DNA of 59,659 nucleotides from an uncultured Parcubacteria group bacterium (GTDB lineage Bacteria > Patescibacteriota > Minisyncoccia > UBA6257 > 2-01-FULL-56-20): NCBI GenBank assembly GCA_903911245.1, contig CAIWCR010000010.1, positions 1-59,659 of the forward strand, written 5' to 3'. Position 1 is the first letter of the stretch. Every line of letters begins with the position of its first letter. The position numbers and the translations under genes are program-made. Below are positions 11,881-55,911 of the stretch, in pieces. The notes under the pieces are model-generated. The model ran no database searches and had not been told where the DNA came from. It saw only the letters and a program-made list of their open reading frames with translations.

Positions 11881-12609
11881 TTAATTGTATTCTACCGGAA
11901 CGCTTTCGAATTTCATTTTCGCTATAACAATGTGATCAAGAAGACTGATGCCGAGAATCTTTCCCGCTTCAACAATTTGTTTTGTAATTACAATATCCGG
12001 CTCACTGGGACTTGCTATTCCTGACGGATGATTATGCGCAAGAATCACTGCCGTCGCAGAATATTCCAACGCTGGACGAAATACTTCACGCGGATGAATA
12101 ATATTCGACGTCAAAATCCCAATGGAAATCACTTCGTCATGAATAAGCTGATAATGGCTATCCAAATATAATCCGCGCAAATGTTCTTTTTGAAGGTCCT
12201 GCATATCTTTCAAATAATCGTATACCTGACTCGCCGTCCTTATCACGATTGGCGCACCGCCATTCGACATTTTAAAAAATCTCCTTCCTAATTCAAAACA
12301 CGCAACCACCTGGCACGCTTTCGCAATAGGAATCCCAAGAAGCTCGCTCACCTTTTTAGGATCCTCTTGATTTAAAATAACGCTATTGCCATATTCCTTG
12401 AGTAAGCGACGCGACATCGCAAGAACGTCCTCTTTCTTAGTACCGACATTCAAAATAACTACAAGGAGTTCGACAACAGAAAGACTAATCGAGCCATATT
12501 TAATCAGCTTCTCCCGGGGTCTCTCCTCGGCAGGTAAATCACGAAACTTCAGAACATATATCTTCTCAGGATTCTCCAAAATCATATCCCCTTCTCTTTG
12601 AATATACAT
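11881..12609 (-). CDS. radC: RadC-family JAB/MPN domain protein
   Basis: ERPREKL N-terminal motif, and JAMM motif HNHPSGIASPSEPD. Confidence 0.85.
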   Translation of the reverse strand: MYIQREGDMILENPEKIYVLKFRDLPAEERPREKLIKYGSISLSVVELLVVILNVGTKKEDVLAMSRRLLKEYGNSVILNQEDPKKVSELLGIPIAKACQVVACFELGRRFFKMSNGGAPIVIRTASQVYDYLKDMQDLQKEHLRGLYLDSHYQLIHDEVISIGILTSNIIHPREVFRPALEYSATAVILAHNHPSGIASPSEPDIVITKQIVEAGKILGISLLDHIVIAKMKFESVPVEYN

Positions 12610-40258: not shown

Positions 40259-40333
40259 TCCGCGATAGCTCAATGGTAGAGCGGCGCCCTGTTAAGGCGA
40301 TGGTTCCTGGTTCGAGTCCAGGTCGCGGAGCCA
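40259..40333 (+). tRNA. tRNA-Asn (anticodon GUU), with encoded CCA
   Basis: TCCGCGA-TA-GCTC-AATGGTA-GAGC-G-GCGCC-CTGTTAA-GGCGA-TGGTT-CCTGG-TTCGAGT-CCAGG-TCGCGGA-G-CCA. There is one G:A mismatch at the top of the anticodon stem. Confidence 0.85.
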
Positions 40334-41926
40334 TATGGGATGAGCAGAGCCAAAAGCTCTGCTTTTCTCTTTATCTACGGGCTCTTTTGGCGGTTCGAAA
40401 GTATTTTTATCGGTGTTTTTCTCGGATAAGGCTTCATTTACGGTGCCGAGTATGAGATCAAAGGGTTTTTGGTATGAAATCTCGATATTCTTTCCGTTTA
40501 TCTTTGGGTTCGAAAATAAAAATGAGAATAGCATTCGTTTCTGTTCGACTGTTCGTCTTGGGTTCAAATAAATCTCCCTAGCTTGTTTTGCGATCTCAAG
40601 CACTGTTACGCCCATCTCAAAATATTTAAGGCTGGCGTTACGATGTTTATTCAAACTATCAAGTACGCAGTCCTGCTCTTTCTTGTATTGCTCGAGTTTT
40701 TTGTTGTAAAACTCGGCACTGATCCGGCAATCGATCTTATCGTCATAAAGTTTATCTATTCGTTGAGTCGCTATCTGATATTGTCGTTCGAGTTCGGCCG
40801 AGGACTTTTCTCTAAAAGCTATTTCATCGGCATGACCCTCTTTTAAAGCTTCCTGAAGCCACGAGAGCATGCGTTCTACCCGTTCGTCTTTATGAGTTAC
40901 AGCCATTATGGAGTCGGCTATTTGAATATCTATATTCTCTTGTTTAACCCAATCTCGTTGCGAGCAGTTCTTATAATGGTTGCAGTGGCCATACCAGTGA
41001 CCTTTTTGTATCTCCCACGTTATCGTGCCTCCGCATTCGCTACAGCGGAATACGCTTTTAAATAGCGAATTGTGTTTACGTGCTCTCGGTGCCCCATAGC
41101 TATGCAGTTTATCTTGCACTTGCTGGAATAGTTCTTTAGTTATAAGCGGTTCGTGATTGCCTTTGGTGATCTGATTTTTCCACCGGTTCATTCCGTAATA
41201 AAATGGATCGCCGATAAGCTGATGAATTCTGGCGTGGCTTACTTTGTGATCAGTTCGGGACCGGAGGCCTTTGTCGTACATCGTATTACAGAGGGTCTTG
41301 GTTGAATGTTGGCCTGAGGCATAAAGCTCAAACATCTTTTTTATAAGCGGTGCTTTTTCCTCATCCGGTACGTGAATTTTGTGTCCCTTGTCACCGATTG
41401 TTTTATATCCAAGCGGTGGCTTGGTCGGAAGCCAGCCTTGCGATAGCTTTTCTTTTTGTCCCTTCTTTACGTTTTCAGAAAGGAGTCGGATGTAGTATTC
41501 GGCCGTGGCTACTTTTACTCGCCACATAAACCATTCGTGTGATTTAGAGTCTTTATGAAGTGTACAGCTTTCTTTGACCAGATGAATGGTATGCCTTTCA
41601 TCGGCTAGTATCCATTCATCGATTACCGGCACGTCAGAAAAGTTACGGGTTAAACGGTCTGTAGTTTCCACGAAGACCGTATTGATTTTGGCCTTGGTCA
41701 CGTATTCCATCATTTCGTGGAATATTTTTCTTTGGATTTTTCCGGCCGCCGATTCTTGAATGGCAAAAACTTTTACAAGCTCATAGCCGTTTCGATCGGC
41801 GAAGTCCCGCAAAAGTTTCTCTTGAGCTGGCAGTGAGTAGCCAGTGTCCTCTTGATCTTTGGAGGAGACACGGGCATATCCTACGGCTCGCATCGATTCA
41901 TTTTCGTTTTGCATTGTCATAGTCAT
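40292..41926 (-). CDS. large serine recombinase (integrase)
   Basis: Resolvase catalytic N-terminus AVGYARVSSKDQ, a recombinase domain, a zinc ribbon (CSECGGT...HCNHYKNC) and a coiled coil. The last 14 codons are antisense to tRNA-Asn. Confidence 0.9.
   Translation of the reverse strand: MTMTMQNENESMRAVGYARVSSKDQEDTGYSLPAQEKLLRDFADRNGYELVKVFAIQESAAGKIQRKIFHEMMEYVTKAKINTVFVETTDRLTRNFSDVPVIDEWILADERHTIHLVKESCTLHKDSKSHEWFMWRVKVATAEYYIRLLSENVKKGQKEKLSQGWLPTKPPLGYKTIGDKGHKIHVPDEEKAPLIKKMFELYASGQHSTKTLCNTMYDKGLRSRTDHKVSHARIHQLIGDPFYYGMNRWKNQITKGNHEPLITKELFQQVQDKLHSYGAPRARKHNSLFKSVFRCSECGGTITWEIQKGHWYGHCNHYKNCSQRDWVKQENIDIQIADSIMAVTHKDERVERMLSWLQEALKEGHADEIAFREKSSAELERQYQIATQRIDKLYDDKIDCRISAEFYNKKLEQYKKEQDCVLDSLNKHRNASLKYFEMGVTVLEIAKQAREIYLNPRRTVEQKRMLFSFLFSNPKINGKNIEISYQKPFDLILGTVNEALSEKNTDKNTFEPPKEPVDKEKSRAFGSAHPIWLRDLDSNQEPSP
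40343..40372 (+). terminator. terminator hairpin after tRNA-Asn (antisense to the recombinase 3' end)
   Basis: AGCAGAGC-caaaa-GCTCTGCT followed by TTTCTCTTT. Confidence 0.5.
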
Positions 41927-41986
41927 ATTTATTGTTAATTTTTATAAGGTTCGAAATCGACTTTTGGTCTCAAGACACAACATACG

Positions 41987-42460
41987 CTAATTTTTCGAAC
42001 AAGCTAAGCTCGAGTTGCCCACAGTGGATTTCTGTTGTCTTTTCCTAGCACTTTCCAGTATTCTCGCAATACTGTCGCTATCTCGCCGATAATCGGCGTT
42101 ATCGTAAGGATCATCACTGCCCATGGTTCTTACTGGACCCAGTACATAATCCAAAATAGCTTTAACAGCTCTGAATTTCATGACATCGCTTTTGGCACCC
42201 ATAAGCGAGACCAGAATATTGGCCGCAATTACCGAATGTCTCGCCAGCACGGTATCAGTCTCTTTATCGCGTACACGGTTTCTTTCTTTTTCGTATTGGT
42301 CGTATTCCTCTTTGAGTAAACCGTCAGACCTAAACCACCGTTTTACACTGACATGCGACACTTTAAGCATTCGAGCGATCTCCAAATAAGTAAAATCGCT
42401 ATATTTTAAGCGGATTGCATTCTGATATTTTTCGTTTTTTATATCTACATTTTTAGCCAT
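41987..42460 (-). CDS. HTH DNA-binding protein (element regulator or terminase-small-like)
   Basis: FTYLEIARMLKVSHVSVKRWF helix-turn-helix near the N-terminus. Confidence 0.45.
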   Translation of the reverse strand: MAKNVDIKNEKYQNAIRLKYSDFTYLEIARMLKVSHVSVKRWFRSDGLLKEEYDQYEKERNRVRDKETDTVLARHSVIAANILVSLMGAKSDVMKFRAVKAILDYVLGPVRTMGSDDPYDNADYRRDSDSIARILESARKRQQKSTVGNSSLACSKN

Positions 42461-42547
42461 TTGGGTATCATTTAGTATCTTTTAACGCTTATTTATTTCC
42501 TGTTTTTTGCTCAATTCGTTGCCGTTTACTGCGGTTTCCCATATTTA

Positions 42548-43126
42548 TTAACGTCTTGAATTATCTTTAAGGGTCATCTTTGCAATCAGTCCGGCTTTCA
42601 TCTCGTTTAATTTCTTGATTTGGTTTTGGCCGTTAATTTCTTTATAATTTTCTTTAATTTCTTTTAAACCCTTAACTTCTATATCATCGCCGTCGTATGC
42701 GGTCTGCTTACCTTGCCGTCCGGCTTTTGATGTAGATTGGTTTCCGTTCTGCGTCAGATGTAGGACGGACAGCAAAGTGATCCCTCGGGGCTTGAACTTG
42801 GCGTCCTCGCCCCGGGTTTTAGTGATCGCTATAAATGTCCATTCTTCGAGCTTGTCCAAGCATTTTTTAATCGTCCGCCAATCTTTTAGGCCAGAGTAAA
42901 TCCGAAGCGTCTTATTGGATGCTTCTATGGTTTGACTGGCCTTGTTTGAGGCAATCTCAGTCAGGGCACAATACACATTTCTCAGATTGCGATATGCGTC
43001 ATCGCTCACATACTTATCAATCCATTGCTGTCGCATGTACCGCAAAGCCGGCTTATCTTGATAAGCGAACGGTGCTTCTCGGTAATCTCGGACCTTATGC
43101 TTTTTGTCGTTCTGGTTCATAGTCAT
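42548..43126 (-). CDS. hypothetical protein (possible wHTH replication/initiator-like)
   Basis: 192-aa ORF in the element's minus-strand gene string. No firm motif. Confidence 0.4.
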   Translation of the reverse strand: MTMNQNDKKHKVRDYREAPFAYQDKPALRYMRQQWIDKYVSDDAYRNLRNVYCALTEIASNKASQTIEASNKTLRIYSGLKDWRTIKKCLDKLEEWTFIAITKTRGEDAKFKPRGITLLSVLHLTQNGNQSTSKAGRQGKQTAYDGDDIEVKGLKEIKENYKEINGQNQIKKLNEMKAGLIAKMTLKDNSRR

Positions 43127-43304
43127 GTTGCACTATTGGCACTTCAGCTTTTTCGTTATCCTCGCAGTAGCACTGCAATAGCGTGTCGTAATAACCGAGA
43201 AGATTAAAAGCGACCTCATGTAATTCCTGATCGCTTACTTCTTGGCCAAAGTCCTCTTTAAGAATCACGCGGAGTTTCTCCAGCGTTTCTGGTTTTAATT
43301 TCAC
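43095..43304 (-). CDS. small hypothetical protein
   Basis: 69 aa. It overlaps the downstream ORF start by 32 nt and sits in the same gene string. Confidence 0.35.
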   Translation of the reverse strand: MKLKPETLEKLRVILKEDFGQEVSDQELHEVAFNLLGYYDTLLQCYCEDNEKAEVPIVQHDYEPERQKA

Positions 43305-43309
43305 AGGTC

Positions 43310-43552
43310 TTAGTTCTCGGCATAAATCCGTACTTTGACCTGTTTAATCTGATTGAAGAAGGCTTGGGGTTCGACTTGAAGTTCACGACTCCAATATCGC
43401 TTCACCAGAGAATCCAGTTCCGGGCTCTTGCCGAAGCAAAAGAGCACCTTGTACGGATTTCCTCGATCCACGACCTCAAGAGAATCAGGAATGAATAATA
43501 AAAGCACCGCAACCAATGCCAGGTCAGCGGTTTTATAAAATTGATTGTCCAT
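43310..43552 (-). CDS. small hypothetical protein
   Basis: 80 aa. Its stop lies 5 nt upstream of the next ORF start. Confidence 0.4.
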   Translation of the reverse strand: MDNQFYKTADLALVAVLLLFIPDSLEVVDRGNPYKVLFCFGKSPELDSLVKRYWSRELQVEPQAFFNQIKQVKVRIYAEN

Positions 43553-43652
43553 ATGTTGGCATTTTCATAATCATTAACTATTTCCTCTCACACATATTCA
43601 GTTTGCCAGTTGGTGTCTGTCTCTTGGAATAATGTTCGGGTGTAGTTAGACA

Positions 43653-43679
43653 ACAAAAAAGAGCCCTATTTCAGGCTCT
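43653..43679 (-). terminator. Rho-independent terminator
   Basis: The minus strand reads AGAGCC-tgaaatag-GGCTCT followed by TTTTTTG. It is nested inside the 10-bp inverted repeat GGTGTAGTTA/TAACTACACC. Confidence 0.55.
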
Positions 43680-43713
43680 CTTATCGAAGTTATTAACTAC
43701 ACCGACTATTACG

Positions 43714-44406
43714 CTACAGTATTTTTATTTTGTACTGCGGATTCAGCTTGTAGCCACTGCCATCTCGACCGCAAATCAAATCTGATATGCCGATTCGATC
43801 ATTGGTTTTCCTATTTATTTCCAATTTGGAATTTCTGATAGCTTGATTGGTGGTGCCGACCATTTCGGCCAGCTCGGCCGTCTTGATATAGCCCTTGGCC
43901 GAGCATAAAACTTTTATCAGTTTCTCTCGCATTTTCTCTTTACTCATCGGGTAACATTTTTTATTGTCTGAATCTAAATAAAGATCACCGTCCGGAGACA
44001 AACAGAGTAGCGTTTGTTTTGCTTTATTCACTTTCTGTTTGGACCGTATCTTTTGGCTTTGTTCGTAAAAACCTTTAGCCATTTCTCTGCCGATTTGAAC
44101 AAGATCTCGCTTGCTTAATTCTTGCAGTTCGTTTTTTAAACCAGCGATTGTCTTGTCGGTTTCTTTTTTGTAATTATCAAATTTAGCCTCGGTTTTGTTT
44201 AATCTATCTTTTAATTCGGTAAATTCGGCACTGTATTTATTTACAATCTCGTCCGGATTCTGAACGCCATTATTTTGTAGTGCTGTTCTTGCGGTGTCCT
44301 TTATGACACCCATTGAAAAATGGTAAACGGGACCGACTCCCACAGTCCGTTTTATGTTGAATTTATGTTTGGTGGCCAAAGAGGCCTTTTTCATTTTCAT
44401 AATCAT
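43714..44406 (-). CDS. coiled-coil protein with a C-terminal HTH
   Basis: A central K/E-rich coiled coil, then a C-terminal TAELAEMVGTTNQAIRNSKLEINRK helix-turn-helix. Confidence 0.45.
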   Translation of the reverse strand: MIMKMKKASLATKHKFNIKRTVGVGPVYHFSMGVIKDTARTALQNNGVQNPDEIVNKYSAEFTELKDRLNKTEAKFDNYKKETDKTIAGLKNELQELSKRDLVQIGREMAKGFYEQSQKIRSKQKVNKAKQTLLCLSPDGDLYLDSDNKKCYPMSKEKMREKLIKVLCSAKGYIKTAELAEMVGTTNQAIRNSKLEINRKTNDRIGISDLICGRDGSGYKLNPQYKIKIL

Positions 44407-44591
44407 ATTTTTTAGTGAATTGAACCCATTTTATGCCCTCCATTCACTAATCTTTGGATGCTTGCGGACATAATCGCATATAGTTGGTTATATCGATCAA
44501 TTGAGTCCACAAGTGTATTATGACAAAAGACGGCGATTTTGACAATGAAAAGCAGAAGGGGTAAAATGATACCAACGACTAATATAATTTT

Positions 44592-44786
44592 ATGAACGAA
44601 ATTGAAAAACTTTTCACGATAGAGGAAATTGCCAAAATTTTGAGAGTACATACTCGTACCGTTACCCGCTATATTGAGTCGGGCAGATTAAAAGCATCCA
44701 AGCTTGGTGTTTGGCGGATTAAGCAATCCGATCTCAATGCTTTTTTGGATGAAACGAGTAATGTAAAAAATAAAAAGAAGAATTAG
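44592..44786 (+). CDS. excisionase-family (MerR-like) HTH protein; possibly Xis and/or the R-M controller
   Basis: FTIEEIAKILRVHTRTVTRYIESGRLKASKLGVWRIKQSDLNAFL matches the excisionase-family DNA-binding domain. Its stop is 3 nt before the first methyltransferase gene. Confidence 0.7.
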   Translation: MNEIEKLFTIEEIAKILRVHTRTVTRYIESGRLKASKLGVWRIKQSDLNAFLDETSNVKNKKKN

Positions 44787-44789
44787 ATT

Positions 44790-46607
44790 ATGCCAAAAAT
44801 AAAAGATATTCCAAAAATAGATCGTCCTCGAGAGAGGTTCCTCAAAAAAGGATCAGAAGCACTTTCAAAGAGTGATCTTTTGGCGATTCTTTTAGGTAGT
44901 GGCATTAAAGGTAAAAATGTTAGACAACTATCAGAGCAGATTATTAAAAAGTTTGGCAAGAATTTTTTAAACATCAAAGTTGAAGACCTTTTGGAAGTCT
45001 CCGGTATTGGCCAAGCTAAAGCCCTGCAGATGGTTTCCGCTATTTCGTTAGTAAAAAGATTTTATGATGAAGAAAAGGGTGGTGACACAATCATCAAAAA
45101 TCAACAGGACGTTTTATCTTTAACATACGACCTACGAGACAAGAAAAAGGAATATTTGGTTTGTCTTTATCTTAACGCTAGAAATGGTTTGATAAAGAAA
45201 GAAATCGTAAGCGTAGGCTTGTTAGATAAAAGTTTAATACATCCGAGAGAAATTTTTCATCCGGCCGTAGAGCTTAACGCCGCCAGTATCATTTTAATTC
45301 ACAATCACCCCTCAGGAGACTCATCTCCCAGCGTAAAGGATATTGAGATAGTGAAAAAAATATCCCAAGCTGGAGAAATAATGGGTATTTCTGTAATTGA
45401 TTTTATTATTACGGCTGAAAACGGAAGCTGTAGTTTTTTTGAAAAATTAAGCAAGGATAAAAAGACCATTGATTATGTTGCCGACGGCATTCAAGGGACT
45501 TTATTCAATCTTTTAGAGCTTGAAAAGCCTGCGTATGAAATAAGTGCCGAGAAAGTTCAGGAAAATTACTTCTATATCCCACAGGTAAAAAAGAACTATC
45601 TGCAATTACAAAATCGCCGATATATTGGTAGCAAGCATAAGCTTATCGAATGGATATTTTCTGTAATCAATAAAGAATGTGAAAAAGGTAATTCCTTTGC
45701 CGATATATTTGCTGGGACCGGGGTGGTTTCGGCTGTCGCGGCTAGGCATTATGATGAGATTATACTCAACGACTTTTTGCATTCTAATTACGCTATTTAC
45801 CAAGCTTTTTTTGGCAATGGTGAATGGGATAAAAATAAGATCGAAAACATCATAAAGGATTACAACAATATTGACGGTAATGACTTAGAGAATAATTATT
45901 TTTCCACAAATTTTGGTGGTAAATATTTCAGCCACAACTCAGCTAAGATCATAGGATTTATTCGAGAGAATGTTGAGGAAAATAGAAATAATTTAACTGA
46001 TAAGGAATACTATATCCTTATTGCTTCCTTACTATATTCCATTGATAAGGTTGCTAATACCGTTGGTCATTATGATGCGTATTTTAAGAAGGAACATGTT
46101 GAGGATGGATTTTTTATGAGACCCATTGATCCGATCGAGGTAAAAAATGTCACAATTTTTAAAGAGGATACCAATCTTTTGGCCAAAAAAATCAAAGCCG
46201 ATATTGTTTATATTGATCCACCTTATAATTCAAGACAATATAGTCGTTTCTACCATGTCTTAGAAACTTTAACGAAATGGGATAAGCCAGAATTATTTGG
46301 TACCGCCCTTAAGCCACAAGAGGAAAATATGAGTGATTATTGTCGAGTTCAAGCAAAGGATAGACTTGCTGAGTTGGTTAATGATTTGAACGCCAAGTAT
46401 TTGGTTGTGTCTTATAACAATACTTACGACTCAAAAAGCAATTCATCCAAAAATAAAATCACCCTGCAAGAGATTAAAGATATTTTGTCGGCGAAAGGAA
46501 AAACTAAAGTGTTTGAAAAAGATTATAGACACTTTAATGCCGGTAATACCGATTTCAAAAATCACAAGGAGTATTTATTCGTAACCACCGTAAACCATGC
46601 AAAATAA
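44790..46607 (+). CDS. fusion protein: N-terminal RadC-like JAB/MPN domain plus C-terminal D12-class N6-adenine DNA methyltransferase
   Basis: Residues 1 to about 215 carry DRPRERF and an intact JAMM motif (HNHPSGDSSPSVKD). Residues from about 270 carry RRYIGSKHKLIEWI, FAGTGVVS (motif I) and IVYIDPPYNS (motif IV). Confidence 0.8.
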   Translation: MPKIKDIPKIDRPRERFLKKGSEALSKSDLLAILLGSGIKGKNVRQLSEQIIKKFGKNFLNIKVEDLLEVSGIGQAKALQMVSAISLVKRFYDEEKGGDTIIKNQQDVLSLTYDLRDKKKEYLVCLYLNARNGLIKKEIVSVGLLDKSLIHPREIFHPAVELNAASIILIHNHPSGDSSPSVKDIEIVKKISQAGEIMGISVIDFIITAENGSCSFFEKLSKDKKTIDYVADGIQGTLFNLLELEKPAYEISAEKVQENYFYIPQVKKNYLQLQNRRYIGSKHKLIEWIFSVINKECEKGNSFADIFAGTGVVSAVAARHYDEIILNDFLHSNYAIYQAFFGNGEWDKNKIENIIKDYNNIDGNDLENNYFSTNFGGKYFSHNSAKIIGFIRENVEENRNNLTDKEYYILIASLLYSIDKVANTVGHYDAYFKKEHVEDGFFMRPIDPIEVKNVTIFKEDTNLLAKKIKADIVYIDPPYNSRQYSRFYHVLETLTKWDKPELFGTALKPQEENMSDYCRVQAKDRLAELVNDLNAKYLVVSYNNTYDSKSNSSKNKITLQEIKDILSAKGKTKVFEKDYRHFNAGNTDFKNHKEYLFVTTVNHAK

Positions 46608-47502
46608 AATCAAAAGATCTCCGCTGTTTTACGTAGGAGATAAATACAAATTAATGAAGCAGTTGGTTGATTTATTTCCTCAGGAAGTAGATACCTTCTA
46701 CGAGCCATTTGTTGGTGGTGGCACGGTCTTTTTGAATATCAATGCAAATAAATATTATTTAAACGACAACGATAAAAATCTTATCGATATACATAAATTC
46801 CTTGTCGGCAGTTCGGGTAACCCAGATATATTTTTTAAGAATGTTGAAAAGATAATAAAGAAATATCACCTATCCCGATCGTACAAAGAGGATATAATTC
46901 CAGCTTCTCTAAAAAAGGAATGGAAGAAAACCTATTTTGCTAGATTCAATAAAGAGGGCTATGAAAAATTGAGAGTTTGTGTAAACAAGCACATAAAGAA
47001 TGATCCTCTGATTCTGTATATCTTACTTATTTATGGTTTCAATCGAATGTTGCGGTTTAATGGTGGTGGTAAATTTAATCTGCCGGTCGGTAATGTTGAT
47101 TTCAATAAAAATGTTGTTAACGCTCTGAATGGTTATTTTGATTTTGTGCAGGATAAAAAGATGACTTTAAGCTCAAAGGACTTTAGAGCTTATTTTGCTA
47201 ATCGGAAATATTCCAAGAACGATTTTGTTTATCTGGACCCACCCTATCTAATAACGGCAAGCGAATATAACAAGCGGTGGGATCAAAAAGCCGAAGCCGA
47301 CTTACTGAAGATGATTGATGATTTGGATAAGAAAGGCGTAAAGTTTGCCCTATCGAATGTAACCCACTATAACGGAAGCAAAAATGATTTACTGATTGAT
47401 TGGATGAAAAAATACAAGACGCATAAAATAGAGAGCAATTATATCAGCTATCACAATAACGGTAAGAAACAGATCAAGGAAGTGTTAATTACCAATTATT
47501 AA
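46597..47502 (+). CDS. D12-class (Dam/DpnA-like) N6-adenine DNA methyltransferase
   Basis: FYVGDKYKL, EPFVGGGTVFLN (motif I), FVYLDPPYL (motif IV) and FALSN. The start overlaps the upstream stop by 11 nt. Confidence 0.85.
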   Translation: MQNKIKRSPLFYVGDKYKLMKQLVDLFPQEVDTFYEPFVGGGTVFLNINANKYYLNDNDKNLIDIHKFLVGSSGNPDIFFKNVEKIIKKYHLSRSYKEDIIPASLKKEWKKTYFARFNKEGYEKLRVCVNKHIKNDPLILYILLIYGFNRMLRFNGGGKFNLPVGNVDFNKNVVNALNGYFDFVQDKKMTLSSKDFRAYFANRKYSKNDFVYLDPPYLITASEYNKRWDQKAEADLLKMIDDLDKKGVKFALSNVTHYNGSKNDLLIDWMKKYKTHKIESNYISYHNNGKKQIKEVLITNY

Positions 47503-47506
47503 ATAT

Positions 47507-49042
47507 ATGAAAACAAAAACAAGAGAATCAGAATATAAACCATTATTATTTACTACTACACTTAGAAACCCAGAAAGGCTTAAGTGGTTTTTGGGAGTAC
47601 TTAAAGATTACAACGGAAAAGTGCTTGACGATCAGTTAGCTGAGGAGATCTCCGGTGAAGTTATTCGGTTTGGATTATATAAGCCAACTAACATAAGTGC
47701 CGTTGTAAAGAATAAAATTGAAACAAAAGAGCCATTGTCCGATTCTGAAGTGAAAAAGGTTCTTGAGGATAATCCACAAAATCATAAAGAAGCCGGTTTC
47801 AGTAAGGGCTGGGCTTCTCGGTTTGATACTTGGTTTAAGATTGCCAAAGAGCTTGGTTTTGTTTATTACAAAAACGGAGAAAAGATAAGATTTTCTGATA
47901 TCGGATTAAAATTGGTTGATAACGAACATCCAGAATTTGAACAGCAAGCTTTTTTGAATGCCTTTGTAAAATATCAAAGTAACAGTCCATTTAGACGCGT
48001 ACTTAATGAAAACGCACCGCTGATTTTATTATTGAGCGTGATCAATAAAATAAATGCTGATAAGGATTTAAACGGGACCGGAATTTCAAAATTAGAATTA
48101 CCTTTGGTTATATTCTGGAAAGATAACGACGCAGAAAAACTATACAAACTTATAAAGAAAATTAGAAAAGAACACGGCTATACTCCGAGCTGGGAGGTTA
48201 TTGTTGATATTTGTGTTAATCAGATCATGGCCGGTGATTTCAAGAAGTTCAATCCGAAGTCAATAATGGTTGACTATCCCGATGAATTCATCAGAAAGAT
48301 GAGACTGACTGGATTGATCTCGCTAAGAGGTGCCGGACGTTTTATTGATATAAACAGAAACGAACAAACAAAGGTTGATTATGCTTTAGCCACTTATTCT
48401 GATTATAAAAAATACGCGACAGAAGAAGAATATTTTAAGTACATGTCGGCCGTGGATGAAAATCTCATCTCGTTTGTTGCCAAGCCAGTAAGTGTTGGCG
48501 AGAGGGATGCCTTTTTGGCCAAGTGGGTCGGTATTTATTCTTGGAATAAAATTAAGGACGAGATGCTGAATCTGGCCAAGAAAAGATTGACTAAGGATGA
48601 TGTTTTGAAATATCTATCAAATCCAGTCAGATTAGAGTTCCTTGTCTCTTTGGCAATTAAATCTAAGTTTCCAAATGTTAAGGTAATACCAAATTATCCT
48701 TATGATGACGAAGGGCTCCCAACATCAACAGCCGGAGGTGTTGGAGATAAAGGTGATATTGAATGCTTTGAGGATGTTAAGGGAATACTGGTCGAAGTCA
48801 CTATGTCAGAGGGTCGCATGCAAACCATGATGGAAGTTTGGCCGATCTCAAGACATTTAGGAGAATTCCAAAAAGGCACAAAAGATTCGATGTGCTATTT
48901 CGTGGCCCCTAGCATATTTAAGGACTCCGTAATGCAAATAAATTACGTTAAGGAAAAAGAGAATCTTTCGATCTTGCCAAAAACAATCGAGGAATTTTTG
49001 ACTCATATAGAAAGCAGAGATGTTTTGTACTCTGTGTCCTAA
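47507..49042 (+). CDS. type IIS restriction endonuclease, AlwI/BstNBI/MlyI/PleI-like
   Basis: It follows two adenine MTase genes. The N-terminal TTLRNPERL block and the putative PD-(D/E)xK block GDIECFEDVKGILVEVTMSEGRMQTMMEVWPISRH resemble the BstNBI family as I recall it. This needs HMM confirmation. Confidence 0.6.
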   Translation: MKTKTRESEYKPLLFTTTLRNPERLKWFLGVLKDYNGKVLDDQLAEEISGEVIRFGLYKPTNISAVVKNKIETKEPLSDSEVKKVLEDNPQNHKEAGFSKGWASRFDTWFKIAKELGFVYYKNGEKIRFSDIGLKLVDNEHPEFEQQAFLNAFVKYQSNSPFRRVLNENAPLILLLSVINKINADKDLNGTGISKLELPLVIFWKDNDAEKLYKLIKKIRKEHGYTPSWEVIVDICVNQIMAGDFKKFNPKSIMVDYPDEFIRKMRLTGLISLRGAGRFIDINRNEQTKVDYALATYSDYKKYATEEEYFKYMSAVDENLISFVAKPVSVGERDAFLAKWVGIYSWNKIKDEMLNLAKKRLTKDDVLKYLSNPVRLEFLVSLAIKSKFPNVKVIPNYPYDDEGLPTSTAGGVGDKGDIECFEDVKGILVEVTMSEGRMQTMMEVWPISRHLGEFQKGTKDSMCYFVAPSIFKDSVMQINYVKEKENLSILPKTIEEFLTHIESRDVLYSVS

Positions 49043-49068: not shown

Positions 49069-52000
49069 ATGGGAATATTCAGATACAAAATTTTAACGGC
49101 GAAAATAAAAACTCTTTTTAAGAGGAAAGATCGATCGCTTATAGACGTAGCCAACAGAGAGAAGAAGGTCAATAAACAATTAAAACCGATCCTTATTAAA
49201 GGGCACGATCCTTTATGGATGCCTTCTGTTTTATCTTTCTTAAAAATATTTTTTACGATGTTATTCTTTTGGATAATATCGCATCCGGAATACTTTTATA
49301 GATACATCCTTTCACCGATAAATTCTTTTCTCTCAAAAATTTCTATTTATAGTCATGTTGTTTCTTATTTAGGCAGGTTTGTCCCTAGTATTTCCATACC
49401 AAATATAAGTGCTAATTTTGATCCAGTTGCTATTCATACCGGTATAGGCGCAGTTTTAATTGGATTGGCATTCTTTGTTGCACAAAGTTTAGCCGACAAA
49501 AATGATCCAGAAAAAGGCAGGGTTTTATTGTATAAGAGTTGGTTTTTCCCTTTGTTAATGGCAGAAGTGATGGCCTTCTTTTTCTTTATCGGCAACACAA
49601 ATATTTTAGGTTTTATTCCAGTGATTGCCATTGCCCTATGGACTATGTTTTCACTAGGTAGTGTGATCGATATTCTTGTAAGAGAGTACAAGATGGAAGA
49701 AGCGAAAAAGGAGGTGCTTCTAAGTGTCACTAAGAAAAATTTTATTCGAATCTTAGACAAAGAAATTACCCAGAGGATTGGTAATAATTTCCTCTATAAA
49801 AAATACGAAAACAGTGGAGTACTAAACGCTAACCCATTCGGATTTTGGGGTAATAAAAAAGAAGTCATTGCTATAAAATCGCAAAAGAGCGGAATAATAC
49901 TTGATATAAAAATTCACGATCTCGAAAAATTAGTAACGATGTTAAGCAGGGTGGTAAATGAGAATACTCCTGCCGAAAATGCTGACCATACCAGTATCGG
50001 AAGCACCAAAGCCAAACAGGAACCAATTTGTTATTTGAAGCCACTGCTCGGATACAAAATAGAAGCAGGAGAAGCACTGTTCGAAATAAAGAAAAGCGTT
50101 GCTGACCGTATAGATATTAAGAGGCTGGCAAAAATTGCTCGTGATGTGTTTGTAATCAAAAAAGATGACTCAGAAACTGAGGCGCGCATTGAAATTTCAA
50201 AATTGAAGGATAGGTGCATACTAGCCATTAACAATCAACAAACTGGAGACCTAGAAAAAATAATCAAGCTGTATGTAGATTTGGTCAAGGAATTTTTTAA
50301 ATATTTCAGCTTGTATCACGGTGGTTGTTTTTCATCAGAACAAGCCAAACAAGAGAGAGGATCATTTTTTGATAAATTGAAGCCATTAGATTGGTTGTCA
50401 AAAGATATCTGGGAAATTTTTGAGAGAGGGATAAATTCGGAAGATATAAATATTATTAGAGATGTTGCCTATCTGCCGATTTTATTAGTCCAACAGGCTA
50501 TTGAAAGTAAGGATCATCTAATTTTCCAAGAATTCATATACTTTTCGCGAGTTCTCTACGAGAGAGCCTATGAACTCTCAGAGAAAGGAAAAAAGAAGGA
50601 AGCGGATATAATGTTCGATCGAACATGGCGCTACTTAAAAGAACTCTCCACATATCATCTTGAGTCAAAGCTAAAAGAGGAAGATTATCCCGAACAAGAT
50701 TTTAAGGATTACTACATACAGATACTTAAGACATTTCAGGAATTATTAAAATCGTCTTTTGATAAAAAGGACTTACATAATTTTGAGAAATTCCTATCAG
50801 TTGTCTCGGATTTGTTTAATCGTCTAGATAGACCGTATTCCGGTTTTACGGATACAGAAAAACTCTATGATTTTCTCTCTGACAAAAGACTAGAGATGCT
50901 TTTTGGCCTCGCAAGTTGGATATTGTCGATACTTAAAAACACCAAAGACTCTGAGACTAAAAAGTTCTACGACGCTGTGCAGAGTAGATTGCCAACGAAA
51001 ATTGAGGAATTCACTGAAGTATTTTTACGCGCTCACGATTTTAAGACTGAAGATTACTGGGGATGGGACTGGTGGGAATCAAGGCCGGACGAGGGAGTTC
51101 ACACTATCAACGTGCTTGAAAAGCTTGAGCAGTTCTTTGTGATTAGGTTGCTTTCATTATTACGCTCAAGGAACGATGCTGATATAGAAAAAATAAACCT
51201 GCCTCATAACAGGGACTTAGCATTTCTTGCTGAAGGGACAAGAGATGCAATGAAAACTATTGATGACATAGAAAAAAATCCAGATAATTGGAAGTTTGCT
51301 TTAGACGACGAATCTATGAAAAAGTGCTCGTCATTGCGAGGGTTATTTAAAAGAGCTCACGAGCAACAAGAACAAGATGATCTAAAAAGAAAGCGAGAAG
51401 CAAGTATTTCGAAAGTTAAGGTTGAAAAATTTAAGGAATCTTTTATTGAAAATTATGAACAAAGTCATCCGATAAAAAAGCTATTCAAAAACTTGAATCT
51501 CTTTTCGGATAAGACGGCTAAAAAAGCCAAGCCAGAAATAAAAAAGATGGGGGTTAATACGATGTTTGATAAGGCCGCCTTTTTTGGCGAAGATGTGGCC
51601 TGGCATGTTCATTACGTAGGTATTGATGAGGCTTTTGGATTTGGCAGGAGCATGGCTTATGGTGAGAACGATCAGGTCTTGGAAGAAATCGCAAACAAGG
51701 CAACAGTAATAACAAAAGATAAATTTGAGAGTACGCTCGGCGAAATAAAAGTATCGAATATAGTCCTTATTGCTACGAATCATGCAATATGGAGATTCTT
51801 TGAGAGAGCGGATACCAATTGGATACCGAAATGGCACAGAGAATTTCCTAAGGAGTTTTCTGATCACATGATCGATGGAGTATATAAATTTAAAGACAAG
51901 CTAATACCCGTTTATCAGTTATTTACTCCGAAAGCTGAGCATTCGGATATTTTCATTCTTGATAAAGCTAAAATTGGAAAATTTATACAATATTCTGCTC

Positions 52001-52257
52001 TCGATGAGAATGACAAGCCAGACTTGGCCTACAAGGGGTTCCTGATAGATGTTCAGGAATTTATTCCAAATTCTGATTTGGTTAATGAATTTCTTGCAAA
52101 ACCGCCACAATGGCTAGCTGACGTTGGTACCAAAGACAAACAGATTGAGCACCTGCAAGAACGTGTGCTGATTCATGTTTTTGAAAAATACGAATTTCAG
52201 ATGAACGATACTTTCTATGGGTATTTACTCCACACTGACGACAAAGACGAGGAATAA
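49069..52257 (+). CDS. 1062-aa protein with a 4-TM N-terminus and an ~850-aa helical domain; function unknown
   Basis: Long uninterrupted ORF starting 26 nt after the REase stop. TM helices lie within the first ~205 aa. No catalytic motif is recognisable by eye, and there is no Walker A. Confidence 0.6.
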   Translation: MGIFRYKILTAKIKTLFKRKDRSLIDVANREKKVNKQLKPILIKGHDPLWMPSVLSFLKIFFTMLFFWIISHPEYFYRYILSPINSFLSKISIYSHVVSYLGRFVPSISIPNISANFDPVAIHTGIGAVLIGLAFFVAQSLADKNDPEKGRVLLYKSWFFPLLMAEVMAFFFFIGNTNILGFIPVIAIALWTMFSLGSVIDILVREYKMEEAKKEVLLSVTKKNFIRILDKEITQRIGNNFLYKKYENSGVLNANPFGFWGNKKEVIAIKSQKSGIILDIKIHDLEKLVTMLSRVVNENTPAENADHTSIGSTKAKQEPICYLKPLLGYKIEAGEALFEIKKSVADRIDIKRLAKIARDVFVIKKDDSETEARIEISKLKDRCILAINNQQTGDLEKIIKLYVDLVKEFFKYFSLYHGGCFSSEQAKQERGSFFDKLKPLDWLSKDIWEIFERGINSEDINIIRDVAYLPILLVQQAIESKDHLIFQEFIYFSRVLYERAYELSEKGKKKEADIMFDRTWRYLKELSTYHLESKLKEEDYPEQDFKDYYIQILKTFQELLKSSFDKKDLHNFEKFLSVVSDLFNRLDRPYSGFTDTEKLYDFLSDKRLEMLFGLASWILSILKNTKDSETKKFYDAVQSRLPTKIEEFTEVFLRAHDFKTEDYWGWDWWESRPDEGVHTINVLEKLEQFFVIRLLSLLRSRNDADIEKINLPHNRDLAFLAEGTRDAMKTIDDIEKNPDNWKFALDDESMKKCSSLRGLFKRAHEQQEQDDLKRKREASISKVKVEKFKESFIENYEQSHPIKKLFKNLNLFSDKTAKKAKPEIKKMGVNTMFDKAAFFGEDVAWHVHYVGIDEAFGFGRSMAYGENDQVLEEIANKATVITKDKFESTLGEIKVSNIVLIATNHAIWRFFERADTNWIPKWHREFPKEFSDHMIDGVYKFKDKLIPVYQLFTPKAEHSDIFILDKAKIGKFIQYSALDENDKPDLAYKGFLIDVQEFIPNSDLVNEFLAKPPQWLADVGTKDKQIEHLQERVLIHVFEKYEFQMNDTFYGYLLHTDDKDEE

Positions 52258-52263
52258 AATATT

Positions 52264-52761
52264 ATGAAAAATGATTGGTATAAAAAGGCTCTGCTAAAGA
52301 ACGCAAAGGAGATAGTAAGCTCTGGTACGACTTACGTGATCTTATCTTTGGTGCTTTTACTCTGGCATTTTGCTTTGGGAATCAAATTCCAATGGCAGAG
52401 TATCAGTCCATTATCTGCACCGAGTATATTTGTTCGGGTGTTTTATAGTGCTTTTACTTTTTGCACGCTCGGCTTAATTCTATACGTGATCAAATTTTAT
52501 AAAGTGCTCCACGATATCGTTGTTAAGGCATTTGGCATGTGGGAACTCTACAACTTAATAAAGGCGGTACTCTGGCTATTTCTGATGTGGATTTCATATG
52601 CCTATCTCGTGCCGTGGCTGTTCAATGTCTTAAATGCTGGCGTGTCTGTATTGTTTAATATTGCCAATCTCGTGTTGTATGCATTACCACCGGTCGGCAT
52701 TACATTAATTTTAAGCATCATCTATCTACTCTCTAGTAAAAAATTAAAACATGAACACTGA
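52264..52761 (+). CDS. 165-aa four-TM membrane protein; function unknown
   Basis: It starts 6 nt after the upstream stop and has four hydrophobic helices. Confidence 0.5.
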   Translation: MKNDWYKKALLKNAKEIVSSGTTYVILSLVLLLWHFALGIKFQWQSISPLSAPSIFVRVFYSAFTFCTLGLILYVIKFYKVLHDIVVKAFGMWELYNLIKAVLWLFLMWISYAYLVPWLFNVLNAGVSVLFNIANLVLYALPPVGITLILSIIYLLSSKKLKHEH

Positions 52762-54729: not shown

Positions 54730-55911
54730 TTAGATTGGATAACGAATAATAACAATACCTGAGCCTCCAGCGCCGCCATACCTAGTTGCGCCAGCGCCGC
54801 CAGCAGCGCCGCCTCCGCCACCACTGCCGGAATTAGCTAAAGCATCGGTCGCATTCGATGAAGTACTTCCACCAGTGCCGCCGCCACTACTACCCAACCC
54901 TTTTTGAGTTATTAATTCTCCACCGCCGCCACCACCGCCTGCATAATACACCGAAGAACCTGAAATTGAATACGATAATCCGACTCCGCCATTGCCTCCA
55001 ATTGCACCTCCTGATCCACCCCCATAAGTACCACTTCCACTTGATCCAACAGTACCTGCGCCACCGCCGCCAGAACCGGGACCATTTGTTACATTGTATG
55101 CACCCCCATTAGAACCCTGACCGGTCGTAGGAGAGCCGCCAGTAGACGCAGAACCACCAGTGCCGCCACCAGAACCACCACTACCTCCATTACTTGAATA
55201 GCCACCACCATATCCTCCACCAATGGCAGTCAATGTACCAAAAATAGAATTGCTTCCCGGGTTTCCATTACTATTACTTCCAGTCTGATGCGCTGCCCCA
55301 CCAGCGCCAATCGTTACTGTAACTTGACCCGTACTAACTGCGTAAGAGGGATAATAAATTACACCACCGCCACCACCACCGCCGCCATGGCCCTCTCCTC
55401 CTCCACCACCGCCACCAACAACAAGAACTTCTACGTTACCGCTGCCAGTAACAGTGAATGTTCCGCTTGTAGTAAAAGTATGAATACGATATCCGCCAAT
55501 GTCAGTAACGGTTCCTCCCGTAGCAGATAAACTACTAATACCAAACCATGATGTCCCATTATAAAATTCAACCCTTGAGGTATCAGTATTGAATCGCATC
55601 ATACCCGTAGTGGGACTCGATGGACGTTGCGCAGTAGTACCAACCGGCATTTTCATACCGGTAGTACCACCCACGTCTAATGTTATAGCAGGATTTGATG
55701 TTCCTATTCCGACATTTCCCGCAGTGTAATACATACTCGTACCACTCAAAAGCCAGAATATCGGATTTCCGTTCGGTGGTTGATTGGATCCAGGACTTGA
55801 GAATGCAAAAACCGCAATCATACAAGCGCTTGAGCCTATGAGGATACTGAGGAAAAGGAGTTTGAAATTCTTGAGGATTTTCATATTTAAATTAATTAAT
55901 TGCAAGCACAA
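54730..55911 (-). CDS. secreted tail-fibre-like protein with a long glycine-rich C-terminal domain
   Basis: Signal peptide. The N-terminal cassette SPGSNQPPNGNPIFWLLSGTSMYYTAGNVGIGTSNP is shared with the upstream paralogue. A TAQRPSSPTTGMMRFNTDTSRVEFYNGTSW motif, recalled from phage fibre proteins, is present. G-runs follow, ending GGSGIVIIRYPI. Confidence 0.6.
   Translation of the reverse strand: MCLQLINLNMKILKNFKLLFLSILIGSSACMIAVFAFSSPGSNQPPNGNPIFWLLSGTSMYYTAGNVGIGTSNPAITLDVGGTTGMKMPVGTTAQRPSSPTTGMMRFNTDTSRVEFYNGTSWFGISSLSATGGTVTDIGGYRIHTFTTSGTFTVTGSGNVEVLVVGGGGGGGEGHGGGGGGGGVIYYPSYAVSTGQVTVTIGAGGAAHQTGSNSNGNPGSNSIFGTLTAIGGGYGGGYSSNGGSGGSGGGTGGSASTGGSPTTGQGSNGGAYNVTNGPGSGGGGAGTVGSSGSGTYGGGSGGAIGGNGGVGLSYSISGSSVYYAGGGGGGGELITQKGLGSSGGGTGGSTSSNATDALANSGSGGGGGAAGGAGATRYGGAGGSGIVIIRYPI

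What the first reader, a model, noticed from the sequence alone, without database searches (positions are those of the whole stretch)
44790..46607. RadC-like JAB/MPN domain fused to a D12 adenine methyltransferase as the first gene of the R-M operon
- The N-terminal ~215 aa form a complete RadC-type module. They carry DRPRERF and an intact H-x-H-x7-S-x2-D JAMM motif (HNHPSGDSSPSVKD).
- The C-terminal ~340 aa form a D12-class MTase (RRYIGSKHKL, FAGTGVVS, DPPYNS).
- The genome also has a stand-alone radC at 11881-12609, so the fusion is not the housekeeping copy.
- RadC-like JAB domains are known to travel with mobile elements and anti-restriction functions.
- A covalent fusion to the modification enzyme of an R-M system is unusual. 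It suggests the JAB domain acts on DNA or on a protein substrate coupled to methylation.
Basis: partly seen in the sequence, partly recalled or inferred. Interest (0 to 1): 0.6.

Follow-up and report, generated by a model that had tools for sequence, protein, structure and literature searches.

The report
RadC-headed methyltransferase of mobile restriction cassette
One real, strongly conserved gene joins a complete copy of RadC (a widespread bacterial protein whose function is still unknown) to the first DNA methyltransferase of a mobile restriction-modification system, and related cassettes carry a LexA head in the same position, which gives testable clues to what RadC does.

Summary
ORF 44790-46607 (605 aa) is a complete RadC (HhH + JAB, JAMM residues intact), then a disordered tether, then a D12 adenine methyltransferase. 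It is followed by a second Dam-like methyltransferase and an AlwI-family endonuclease. It is preceded by a small HTH_17 gene, so it is not the first gene of the operon. The cassette sits on a tRNA-Asn/serine-recombinase island in an 865-kb CPR-type genome.

The fusion is not an artefact. Hundreds of independent assemblies from many phyla encode it, and both halves stay 70-85% identical although synonymous sites are saturated. It is common in databases but undescribed in the literature searched. This scan has met it before on other DNA (71 notes).

New here:
- The RadC head recombines between different R-M bodies: identical heads sit on methyltransferases 43% identical, with the breakpoint at the junction.
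- The head is dispensable, since some cassettes have lost it.
- Orthologous cassettes carry a LexA (wHTH + S24 peptidase) head instead.
- A Q-x-x-L-F clamp-docking-like motif sits in the tether under both head types and survives head loss.

The function of the head remains inferred.

The parts
44539..44567 (+). Promoter-like site TTGACA-17-TAAAAT upstream of the HTH_17 gene
   Evidence: 11 of 12 matches, the best in the region. It is a consensus match only; the total number of sites is not above the shuffled expectation.
44592..44786 (+). 64-aa HTH_17 / excisionase-type DNA-binding protein, the likely controller of the cassette
   Evidence: PF12728, 5.3e-16; TIGR01764. It is conserved at 96% in the closest relative L010. 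An HTH_17-like domain is fused directly to M1 in L087 (by eye). 13 of 61 related loci have an abutting small HTH gene.
44790..46607 (+). RadC-tether-D12 methyltransferase fusion gene (M1), 605 aa
44799..45023 (+). [quoted passage not shown]
   Evidence: 2.7e-22. Median identity to 120 homologues is 87%.
45096..45443 (+). RadC-type JAB/MPN domain, residues 103-218, with Glu154 (HPRE, 45240-45251) and the JAMM motif HNHPSGDSSPSVKD (45300-45341)
   Evidence: 5.9e-36. PDB 2QLC, 3.6e-23. TM 0.87, rmsd 2.1 A to 2QLC. E154, H171, H173 and D184 are invariant in 50 to 121 sequences.
45459..45542 (+). Disordered tether, residues 224-251, carrying the conserved peptide DYVADGIQGTLFNLLELEKP (45471-45530) with core QGTLF (45492-45506)
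   Evidence: pLDDT below 50, with a short helix at 233-241. Y229, Q235 and F239 invariant, L238 at 90% or more; distribution of the motif; the recombination breakpoint lies at residues 233-250.
45621..46349 (+). D12-class (alpha-type) N6-adenine DNA methyltransferase domain, with motif I FAGTGVVS (45708-45731) and motif IV DPPYNS (46215-46232)
   Evidence: 1.3e-35; fold match to E. coli Dam; coordinates.
46597..47502 (+). M2, Dam-family adenine methyltransferase, 301 aa; its start overlaps the end of M1 by 11 nt
   Evidence: 2.7e-28; TIGR00571, 138 bits against a cut-off of 115. Only 23% identical to M1.
47507..49042 (+). AlwI-family restriction endonuclease, 511 aa
   Evidence: PF09491, 4.2e-44; its C-terminal catalytic region matches the BspD6I large and small subunits.
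49069..52761 (+). Variable cargo slot: a 1062-aa multi-pass membrane protein without a Pfam match, and a 165-aa protein
   Evidence: This segment is absent from the otherwise collinear relative L010, where a different 2.9 kb takes its place.
40259..41926 (.). Left end of the island: tRNA-Asn (40259-40333, +) and a large serine recombinase (40292-41926, -)
   Evidence: and (Resolvase 5e-22, Recombinase 4.4e-18). G+C is about 0.35 in the cassette against 0.42-0.48 in the flanks. The island is collinear with L010 from 40309 to 49013 at 82% DNA identity.
11881..12609 (-). Stand-alone, housekeeping-type radC (HhH + JAB, 242 aa)
   Evidence: It has no Q-x-x-L-F motif.

Best explanation
The gene encodes M1, the first of two strand-specific adenine methyltransferases of an AlwI-family (type IIS-like) restriction-modification cassette. 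The cassette is carried on a tRNA-Asn/serine-recombinase island. The N-terminal 222 residues are a complete, catalytically intact RadC (HhH DNA-binding domain plus a JAB zinc hydrolase). This RadC behaves as a portable accessory 'head': it recombines as a unit between different R-M bodies, it is kept under strong purifying selection, and it is not needed for the basic M1+M2+R system. Head and methyltransferase are joined by a disordered tether whose conserved Q-x-x-L-F peptide most likely docks the enzyme on a partner protein. The best candidate partner is the beta sliding clamp, which would place M1 and its head on freshly replicated or repaired DNA. Shown here: the architecture, its conservation, its modularity, the dispensability of the head, and the distribution of the motif. 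Inferred: clamp docking, and that the head acts on DNA or on a DNA-bound protein at those sites.
For: - Architecture.
- Not an artefact: the 120 best hits all have the same four domains at 602-611 aa. One homologue is indexed in 127 blocks of the collection. 118 species genomes across CPR, Omnitrophota, Atribacterota, Proteobacteria, Planctomycetes, Nitrospirae and DPANN matched.
- Selection: four-fold sites are saturated (0.25-0.45 identity) while both halves stay 66-89% identical. E154, H171, H173 and D184 are invariant.
- Portable head: the MTase tree splits families A and B at 100/100 support. In the RadC tree B is polyphyletic, with 0% of bootstrap trees giving monophyly. L018 and L067 have identical 220-aa heads on MTases 43% identical. 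Their DNA is about 98% identical up to residue ~233 and then collapses.
- Other bodies: RadC heads also sit on C5 and N6_N4 MTases.
- Dispensable: L080, L081 and L087 have M1+M2+R without RadC. L083 and L089 have lost only the JAB domain.
- Tether: pLDDT is below 50. Q235 and F239 are invariant. Q-x-x-L-F is present in families A and B, in P0122 and in C5 fusions. It is retained in the headless L078, L080 and L081 and in the JAB-less L083. It is absent from 28 stand-alone RadC proteins and from ordinary headless or HTH-headed MTases. It arises independently as QLPLF in 60 of 79 LexA-headed MTases, with unrelated flanks. One fragment carries QLSLF.
- The genome encodes dnaN.
Against: - No binding, methylation or hydrolase activity was or could be measured here.
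- Q-x-x-L-F is short. By my own estimate a 600-aa protein has roughly an 8% chance of one such match, so only its positional conservation carries weight.
- Some fusions lack a strict match: L013 has QTTFF, and P0139 and P0204 have none.
- No bacterial R-M methyltransferase with a clamp-binding motif turned up in the literature searched.
- Archaeal MAGs also carry the fusion, and archaea use PCNA, not the beta clamp.
- The recognition sequence is unknown. Neither GGATC nor GAGTC is avoided in the genome.
- What RadC itself does is still unknown (PMC13756078 and PMC11981726).
Confidence: 0.55

Rival explanations
1. The RadC head is a LexA-like regulatory or sensor module. It would be a DNA-binding domain plus a peptidase that processes itself or a partner in response to ssDNA or DNA damage, for instance self-restriction. 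That processing would adjust methyltransferase level, release or activity.
For: - Orthologous cassettes (D12 M, AlwI-type R of 605-611 aa, N6_N4 M) carry either a RadC head or a LexA head (wHTH + S24, with AAGEP, GDSM and LKR intact). The MTase domains are 59-61% identical, the REases 50-56%, and M2 64-66%.
- Other homologues of this MTase carry HTH_3 heads or an HTH_17-like head (L087).
- MTases that bind their own promoter are a known precedent, e.g. M.SsoII and M.EcoRII (references listed in PMC3874152).
Against: - HhH domains usually bind DNA without sequence specificity (my own knowledge).
- 13 of 61 RadC-headed cassettes, including this window, already have a separate abutting HTH controller gene.
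- No operator-like palindrome was evident upstream.
- Peptidase activity has never been shown for RadC.
- According to PMC5512222, RadC-type JAB domains probably lack the groove that holds the ubiquitin tail.
Confidence: 0.2
2. [quoted passage not shown] It would work alongside the R-M system, for example by trimming or repairing DNA ends or intermediates made by restriction or methylation.
For: - Iyer 2011 (PMC3239186) noted that RadC is positionally equivalent to a 3'-5' exonuclease on DinG helicases.
- RadC has an HhH DNA-binding domain.
- The head occurs on three chemically different MTase classes, so its role is tied to DNA and not to one methylation chemistry.
Against: - The structural neighbours of RadC-like domains are metallopeptidases (PMC11981726).
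- A dedicated REase is already present in the cassette.
- The head is displaced by LexA, which is not a nuclease, in orthologous cassettes.
Confidence: 0.12
3. RadC is an establishment or anti-restriction factor of the mobile cassette. It would help incoming, possibly single-stranded, DNA survive or be methylated before restriction, much as the ssDNA methylase DpnA does. On this view it is fused to M1 only for co-expression.
For: - RadC accompanies ArdB/ArdC anti-restriction genes on mobile elements (PMC3239186; PMC12458937).
- radC appears in papers on competence regulons.
- The cassettes are horizontally mobile and sit in defence or mobile islands.
Against: - Fusion through a conserved tether, maintained over saturated synonymous divergence, argues for physical coupling and not mere co-expression.
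- No unfused 'RadC gene + M1 gene' arrangement was seen among the 80 loci. The one nearby RadC-like hit, in L080, is on the opposite strand.
Confidence: 0.1
4. The fusion is an assembly or frameshift artefact that joins two genes.
Against: The same open frame is found in hundreds of independent assemblies and many phyla. The frame is preserved although synonymous sites are saturated. The junction tether contains invariant residues.
Confidence: 0.01

Closest known systems
AlwI / BspD6I / N.BstNBI / MlyI / PleI family type IIS restriction-modification systems
   Same: An RE_AlwI endonuclease whose catalytic region resembles BspD6I. Two separate adenine methyltransferases, as expected for an asymmetric site. 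A compact co-directional operon.
   Different: M1 carries a complete RadC head and a motif-bearing tether. The recognition sequence and the cleavage geometry are unknown. REases of 26-96% identity are found behind M1/M2 pairs that stay at about 78% identity.
Stand-alone RadC / YicR (UPF0758; PF20582 + PF04002; NF000642; PDB 2QLC)
   Same: Full HhH + JAB architecture. The score is above the equivalog cut-off. The JAMM residues are intact. The fold matches 2QLC at TM 0.87.
   Different: It is covalently joined to a DNA methyltransferase and is only 42% identical to the genome's own radC. It travels with a mobile R-M cassette and recombines between cassettes.
LexA(wHTH+S24)-D12 methyltransferase fusions of CPR bacteria (found here; not described in the literature searched)
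   Same: Same position in front of an orthologous D12 MTase, in the same three-gene cassette. The tether has a Q-x-x-L-F core. Both heads are a DNA-binding domain plus a predicted hydrolase or peptidase.
   Different: The head folds are unrelated (wHTH + serine peptidase against HhH + zinc JAB). The sequences flanking the tether motif are unrelated.
Methyltransferases with an N-terminal regulatory DNA-binding extension (M.SsoII, M.EcoRII, M.Ecl18kI, M.ScrFIA)
   Same: An N-terminal DNA-binding extension on the MTase of an R-M system. Homologues of this M1 carry HTH_3 heads.
   Different: Here the extension is an HhH domain plus a JAB enzyme, not an HTH. A separate HTH_17 controller gene is already present.
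Eukaryotic DNMT1 recruited to PCNA through a PIP box (my own knowledge)
   Same: A maintenance-type DNA methyltransferase with a short clamp-docking peptide in a disordered N-terminal region. It is a functional analogy for the Q-x-x-L-F tether.
   Different: No homology. Clamp binding is not shown here. The bacterial clamp is DnaN.

Membership tests
RadC / YicR (UPF0758) | N-terminal HhH domain (PF20582) | tested here: met
   residues 4-78, 2.7e-22.
RadC / YicR (UPF0758) | RadC-type JAB domain with E...HxH...S..D metal and catalytic residues | tested here: met
   5.9e-36; 2QLC, 3.6e-23; TM 0.87. E154, H171, H173 and D184 are invariant.
RadC / YicR (UPF0758) | Score above the NCBIfam equivalog cut-off | tested here: met
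   NF000642, 209.9 bits against a cut-off of 180.
RadC / YicR (UPF0758) | Stand-alone protein of about 220 aa | tested here: not met
   It is fused to a 380-aa tether plus MTase. The genome's stand-alone copy is at 11881-12609.
D12-class (alpha) N6-adenine DNA methyltransferase | PF02086 match, with motif I (FxGxG) before motif IV (DPPY) | tested here: met
   (1.3e-35). FAGTGVVS at 307-314 and DPPYNS at 476-481. Dam-like fold.
D12-class (alpha) N6-adenine DNA methyltransferase | m6A methylation of a defined site | not testable with these tools
   Needs a methylome or a biochemical assay. The site-avoidance test was uninformative.
AlwI-family type IIS R-M system | An RE_AlwI endonuclease in the same operon | tested here: met
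   PF09491, 4.2e-44, at 47507-49042. BspD6I catalytic region.
AlwI-family type IIS R-M system | Two methyltransferase activities, one for each strand of an asymmetric site | tested here: met
   M1 and M2 are both D12 class but only 23% identical. Strand assignment is inferred.
AlwI-family type IIS R-M system | Asymmetric recognition site with cleavage outside the site | not testable with these tools
   No REBASE and no assay available here.
Beta-clamp-binding motif (QL[SD]LF / QxxLF class) | Sequence match to the consensus | tested here: met
   QGTLF at 235-239. A relative's tether reads QLSLF. LexA-headed relatives read QLPLF. The consensus is taken from my own knowledge.
Beta-clamp-binding motif (QL[SD]LF / QxxLF class) | Lies in a disordered region and is conserved while the flanks vary | tested here: met
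   pLDDT is below 50 for residues 224-251. Q235 and F239 are invariant. The motif is retained with diverged flanks in L080, L081 and L083.
Beta-clamp-binding motif (QL[SD]LF / QxxLF class) | Physical binding to the DnaN hydrophobic cleft | not testable with these tools
   Only single-chain prediction is offered. dnaN is present in the genome.
LexA-type self-cleaving repressor | wHTH DNA-binding domain plus an S24 Ser-Lys peptidase with an Ala-Gly cleavage site | tested here: not met
   This protein has HhH + JAB instead. The resemblance is positional only.
Polyvalent proteins of conjugative elements (Iyer 2017) | A multi-domain protein of a conjugative element or phage that is delivered with the DNA | tested here: inconclusive
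   The island has a serine recombinase, but the Pfam scans of its ORFs found no conjugation or virion genes. The protein has only two functional modules.

The most novel reading that the evidence does not exclude
RadC is the functional counterpart of LexA: a DNA-bound, signal-responsive (ssDNA- or damage-responsive) metallopeptidase module. On R-M methyltransferases, either head, together with a clamp-docking tether, would couple protective methylation to replication or to self-inflicted DNA damage. This would assign a biochemical role to stand-alone RadC after some forty years of uncertainty. It would also reveal damage-coupled control of restriction-modification systems.
Probability: 0.18. 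Interest if true: 0.85.

Novelty: new variant of a known kind. Interest (0 to 1): 0.6.

Why it matters
RadC is found in most bacterial lineages. It was named for a repair phenotype that was later reassigned, and reviews in 2025-26 still describe its mechanism as elusive. Here a complete, catalytically conserved RadC is physically tied to restriction-system methyltransferases of three chemistries, is exchanged as a unit between cassettes, and is replaced by LexA in orthologous cassettes. That narrows the hypotheses to a DNA-bound, probably peptidase-type function linked to replication or damage. It also gives simple constructs for experiments: the fusion, a head-less version, JAMM mutants and tether mutants. 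For R-M biology, it points to an undescribed layer of coupling between modification enzymes and the replisome or the damage response, seen mostly in ultra-small uncultured bacteria.

Tried and rejected
- Recognition site from oligonucleotide avoidance: GGATC has O/E 1.14 and GAGTC 1.02, so the test is uninformative.
- Recent transfer as the cause of the high protein identity: rejected. Four-fold sites are saturated for all homologues except L010. Only the L018/L067 head exchange is recent.
- The Q-x-x-L-F motif as an intrinsic part of RadC: rejected. It is absent from 28 stand-alone RadC representatives and from the genome's own radC.
- The motif as an intrinsic part of ordinary D12 MTases: rejected. 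Headless homologues start 7-30 residues before RRYIGSK and have no tether.
- The RadC head as a simple substitute for the C-protein controller: weakened. 13 of 61 cassettes, including this one, have a separate abutting HTH gene.
- Operator-like palindromes upstream of the LexA-headed and RadC-headed genes: none evident by eye. Left as inconclusive.
- Literature searches for RadC-MTase fusions, LexA-MTase fusions and clamp-binding bacterial MTases: nothing relevant found.
Full report
**1. Observation**

The window holds a 605-aa ORF at 44790..46607 (+). Pfam finds UPF0758_N (HhH) at residues 4-78, the RadC JAB domain at 103-218 and MethyltransfD12 at 278-520, each with an E-value of 1e-22 or better. 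The NCBIfam RadC equivalog model scores above its cut-off, at 209.9 bits against 180. The stand-alone radC at 11881-12609 (-) is real, and it is the only other RadC match in the 865-kb, 98.8%-complete genome. It is 42% identical to the fused copy over the whole RadC length.

An AlphaFold2 model built on 50 homologues gives a confident Dam-like C-terminal half and a RadC-like JAB domain. The JAB domain superposes on PDB 2QLC with TM 0.87 and rmsd 2.1 A.

**2. Context**

A 64-aa HTH_17/excisionase-type gene (44592-44786) ends 3 nt before the fusion. The best promoter-like site of the region lies just upstream of it, at 44539-44567. The fusion is therefore the second gene of the operon, not the first.

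M2, a Dam-family MTase, overlaps the end of M1 by 11 nt. An RE_AlwI endonuclease follows 4 nt after M2. Its catalytic region resembles BspD6I.

The cassette lies on an island that begins at tRNA-Asn with a large serine recombinase and has a lower G+C content than its flanks. The closest public relative, a Candidatus Magasanikiibacteriota MAG (L010), is collinear from the recombinase to the end of the REase at 82% DNA identity. After the REase, the window's 1062-aa membrane protein and 165-aa protein are replaced in L010 by other DNA, so this stretch is a variable cargo slot.

**3. Not an artefact, and not rare**

The 120 best database hits all have the same four Pfam domains at 602-611 aa and 77-97% identity. 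A single homologue is indexed in 127 blocks of the contig collection. A scan of one genome per species found 118 relatives. They come from many CPR lineages, Omnitrophota, Atribacterota, Gamma- and Deltaproteobacteria, Planctomycetes, Nitrospirae, Spirochaetes, Campylobacterota and DPANN/Altiarchaeales MAGs. The three-gene core recurs in unrelated chromosomal neighbourhoods, often next to SIR2/HerA-like or AAA ATPase defence genes.

In an even sample of 300 genomes from the window's own phylum, about 5 carry the fusion, scattered over different families. That patchiness fits a mobile cassette.

Four-fold degenerate sites between the window's gene and most homologues are saturated (0.25-0.45 identity). 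Meanwhile the RadC half (66-84% identical) and the MTase half (68-89%) stay conserved. E154, H171, H173 and D184 of the JAMM site are invariant. The RadC head is therefore under strong purifying selection and probably active.

**4. The head is a portable module**

A second family of cassettes (B) has RadC heads 74-83% identical to this one. Their D12 MTase is only 41-45% identical, and they have a different AlwI-type REase and an N6_N4 second MTase.

In the MTase tree, A and B are separated by a long branch with 100/100 support. In the RadC tree, B is polyphyletic: starred branches force at least three changes, and no bootstrap tree recovers B as one group.

L018 (A) and L067 (B) have identical 220-aa heads. 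Their DNA is about 98% identical through the RadC codons and collapses at residues 233-250, exactly at the tether.

RadC heads 43-64% identical to this one also sit on C5-cytosine MTases (P0137, P0139, P0218, P0132) and on an N6_N4 MTase (P0204). The head's role therefore does not depend on methylation chemistry or on the target site.

**5. The head is dispensable**

Within family A, L080, L081 and L087 keep M1, M2 and R without RadC. L078 is a headless orphan M1. L083 and L089 keep the HhH domain but have lost the JAB domain.

**6. The tether motif**

Earlier notes of this scan reported a Q-x-x-L-F peptide resembling a sliding-clamp docking site. I tested that lead here.

- In this protein the motif is QGTLF at residues 235-239. 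It lies inside a segment (224-251) with pLDDT below 50, and a short helix is predicted over the motif.
- Q235 and F239 are invariant, and L238 is conserved at 90% or more, in a 50-sequence alignment that spans families A and B.
- The motif is present in the 42%-identical D12 fusion P0122 and in three C5 fusions.
- It is absent from 28 stand-alone RadC representatives, from the genome's own radC, from ordinary headless homologues of M1 (which have no tether at all) and from HTH_3-headed homologues.
- It survives loss of the head (L078 QGTLF, L080 QGALF, L081 QDKLF) and loss of the JAB domain in L083 (QEDLF), while the surrounding sequence has diverged. L089, the other JAB-less locus, has only a degenerate QTALPLF there.

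This refines the earlier notes. The motif works without RadC, so it is unlikely to be merely a RadC substrate or part of the RadC fold.

**7. LexA displaces RadC**

Homologues of this MTase carry other N-terminal heads: HTH_3 in four of ten checked, an HTH_17-like domain in L087, and a complete LexA (LexA_DNA_bind + Peptidase_S24) in P0150.

The LexA-MTase fusion is a recurrent CPR family, with about 85 clusters at 62% identity or more. The next-best hits to it are RadC-headed proteins whose MTase part is 61-67% identical.

Their cassettes are orthologous. Each consists of head-D12 M, an AlwI-type R of 605-611 aa and an N6_N4 M of about 256 aa. Between the two head types, the MTase domains are 59-61% identical, the REases 50-56% and M2 64-66%. 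The LexA head keeps the AAGEP cleavage site and the GDSM/LKR catalytic residues.

The LexA tether reads KPxQLPLFxxPQ. 60 of 79 sequences have QLP[LM]F, and the variants printed among the rest are QLPFF or QLPLY. The RadC-headed versions of the same body read Y[VI]SDGxQxSLFDLLE in 25 of 25 cases. The flanks are unrelated but the core is the same, which indicates a convergent short linear motif 20-40 residues before the MTase domain.

**8. Interpretation**

Securely established: this is the M1 of an AlwI-family R-M cassette, carrying a portable, selected, catalytically intact and non-essential RadC head.

The most likely role of the tether is partner docking. The beta clamp is the best candidate for these reasons:
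- the motif matches the consensus;
- it lies in a disordered region;
- one relative reads QLSLF;
- dnaN is present in the genome.

Nothing comparable turned up in the literature searched, and binding is untested.

For the head itself, the displacement by LexA suggests a DNA-bound peptidase-type sensor. This differs from the nuclease reading that Iyer et al. derived from displacement on DinG helicases. It agrees with the structural neighbours reported for RadC-like domains, which are metallopeptidases.

Against a pure transcription-controller role, 13 of 61 RadC-headed cassettes, including this one, already have an abutting HTH gene. HhH domains are also usually not sequence-specific (my own knowledge).

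**9. Novelty**

The papers that catalogue RadC fusions list HhH, ArdC, DnaG and DinG partners but no methyltransferase. Searches for RadC-MTase and LexA-MTase fusions found nothing relevant. The scan itself has recorded this fusion 71 times in at least 63 genomes.

I class it as a new variant of a known kind: an ordinary type IIS-like R-M system with an undescribed accessory head on its methyltransferase.

Noticed in passing
window 49069-52257 (+): A 1062-aa protein with several predicted membrane helices near its N-terminus and no Pfam or NCBIfam match lies directly after the REase. It is absent from the collinear relative L010, so it is separate cargo in a variable slot.
   Followed up: partly
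window 52264-52761 (+); L087:3527-3967 (-): The 165-aa protein after the membrane protein has no Pfam match. A 40%-identical relative lies about 2 kb upstream of another AlwI-type cassette, L087.
   Followed up: no
L008:4772-4897 and L009:2228-2353: Two Omnitrophota loci carry a 41-aa diverged RadC N-terminal fragment (...DDRPREKLLKKG...) about 180 nt upstream of the full RadC-MTase gene. It may be a relic of an earlier RadC-headed gene or of recombination at the head.
   Followed up: partly
L010-L089: Within the main family, M1 and M2 stay at about 75-80% identity to the window while the adjacent AlwI-family REase falls into classes of about 95%, 75%, 58%, 50% and 26% identity. The endonuclease gene appears to be swapped behind a conserved methyltransferase pair.
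   Followed up: no
L094:6001-10287; P0150, P0270-P0350: A recurrent CPR family of LexA (wHTH + S24 peptidase)-D12 methyltransferase fusions heads AlwI-type R-M cassettes. Databases annotate them as 'transcriptional repressor LexA' or 'Modification methylase StsI'. I found no description in the literature searched.
   Followed up: partly
L018:5823-5953 vs L067:13588-13719: A segment of about 130 bp upstream of the RadC-MTase gene in one locus is 77% identical to a segment downstream of the whole defence cassette in another locus. It could be a flanking repeat of a mobile unit.
   Followed up: no
L087:~5790-6021: An HTH_17/MerR-like domain is fused directly to the N-terminus of an M1 72% identical to the window's. 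It is the same kind of HTH that is a separate gene in the window (read by eye, no HMM run).
   Followed up: partly
L090:13246-16276; L092:13413-16293; L008:9764-11101: SIR2_2 and DUF87 (HerA-like) genes directly follow RadC-headed R-M cassettes in several genomes, so these are composite defence islands.
   Followed up: no
G139:C39:44602-46218: One relative in the same phylum matches residues 1-545 with two in-frame TGA codons. This could be an alternative genetic code (TGA read as an amino acid) or a broken copy.
   Followed up: no
window 54730-55911 (-): A glycine-rich repeat protein (Gly_rich_2) whose gene contains many 9-nt-phased CCACCGCCG-type repeats.
   Followed up: no
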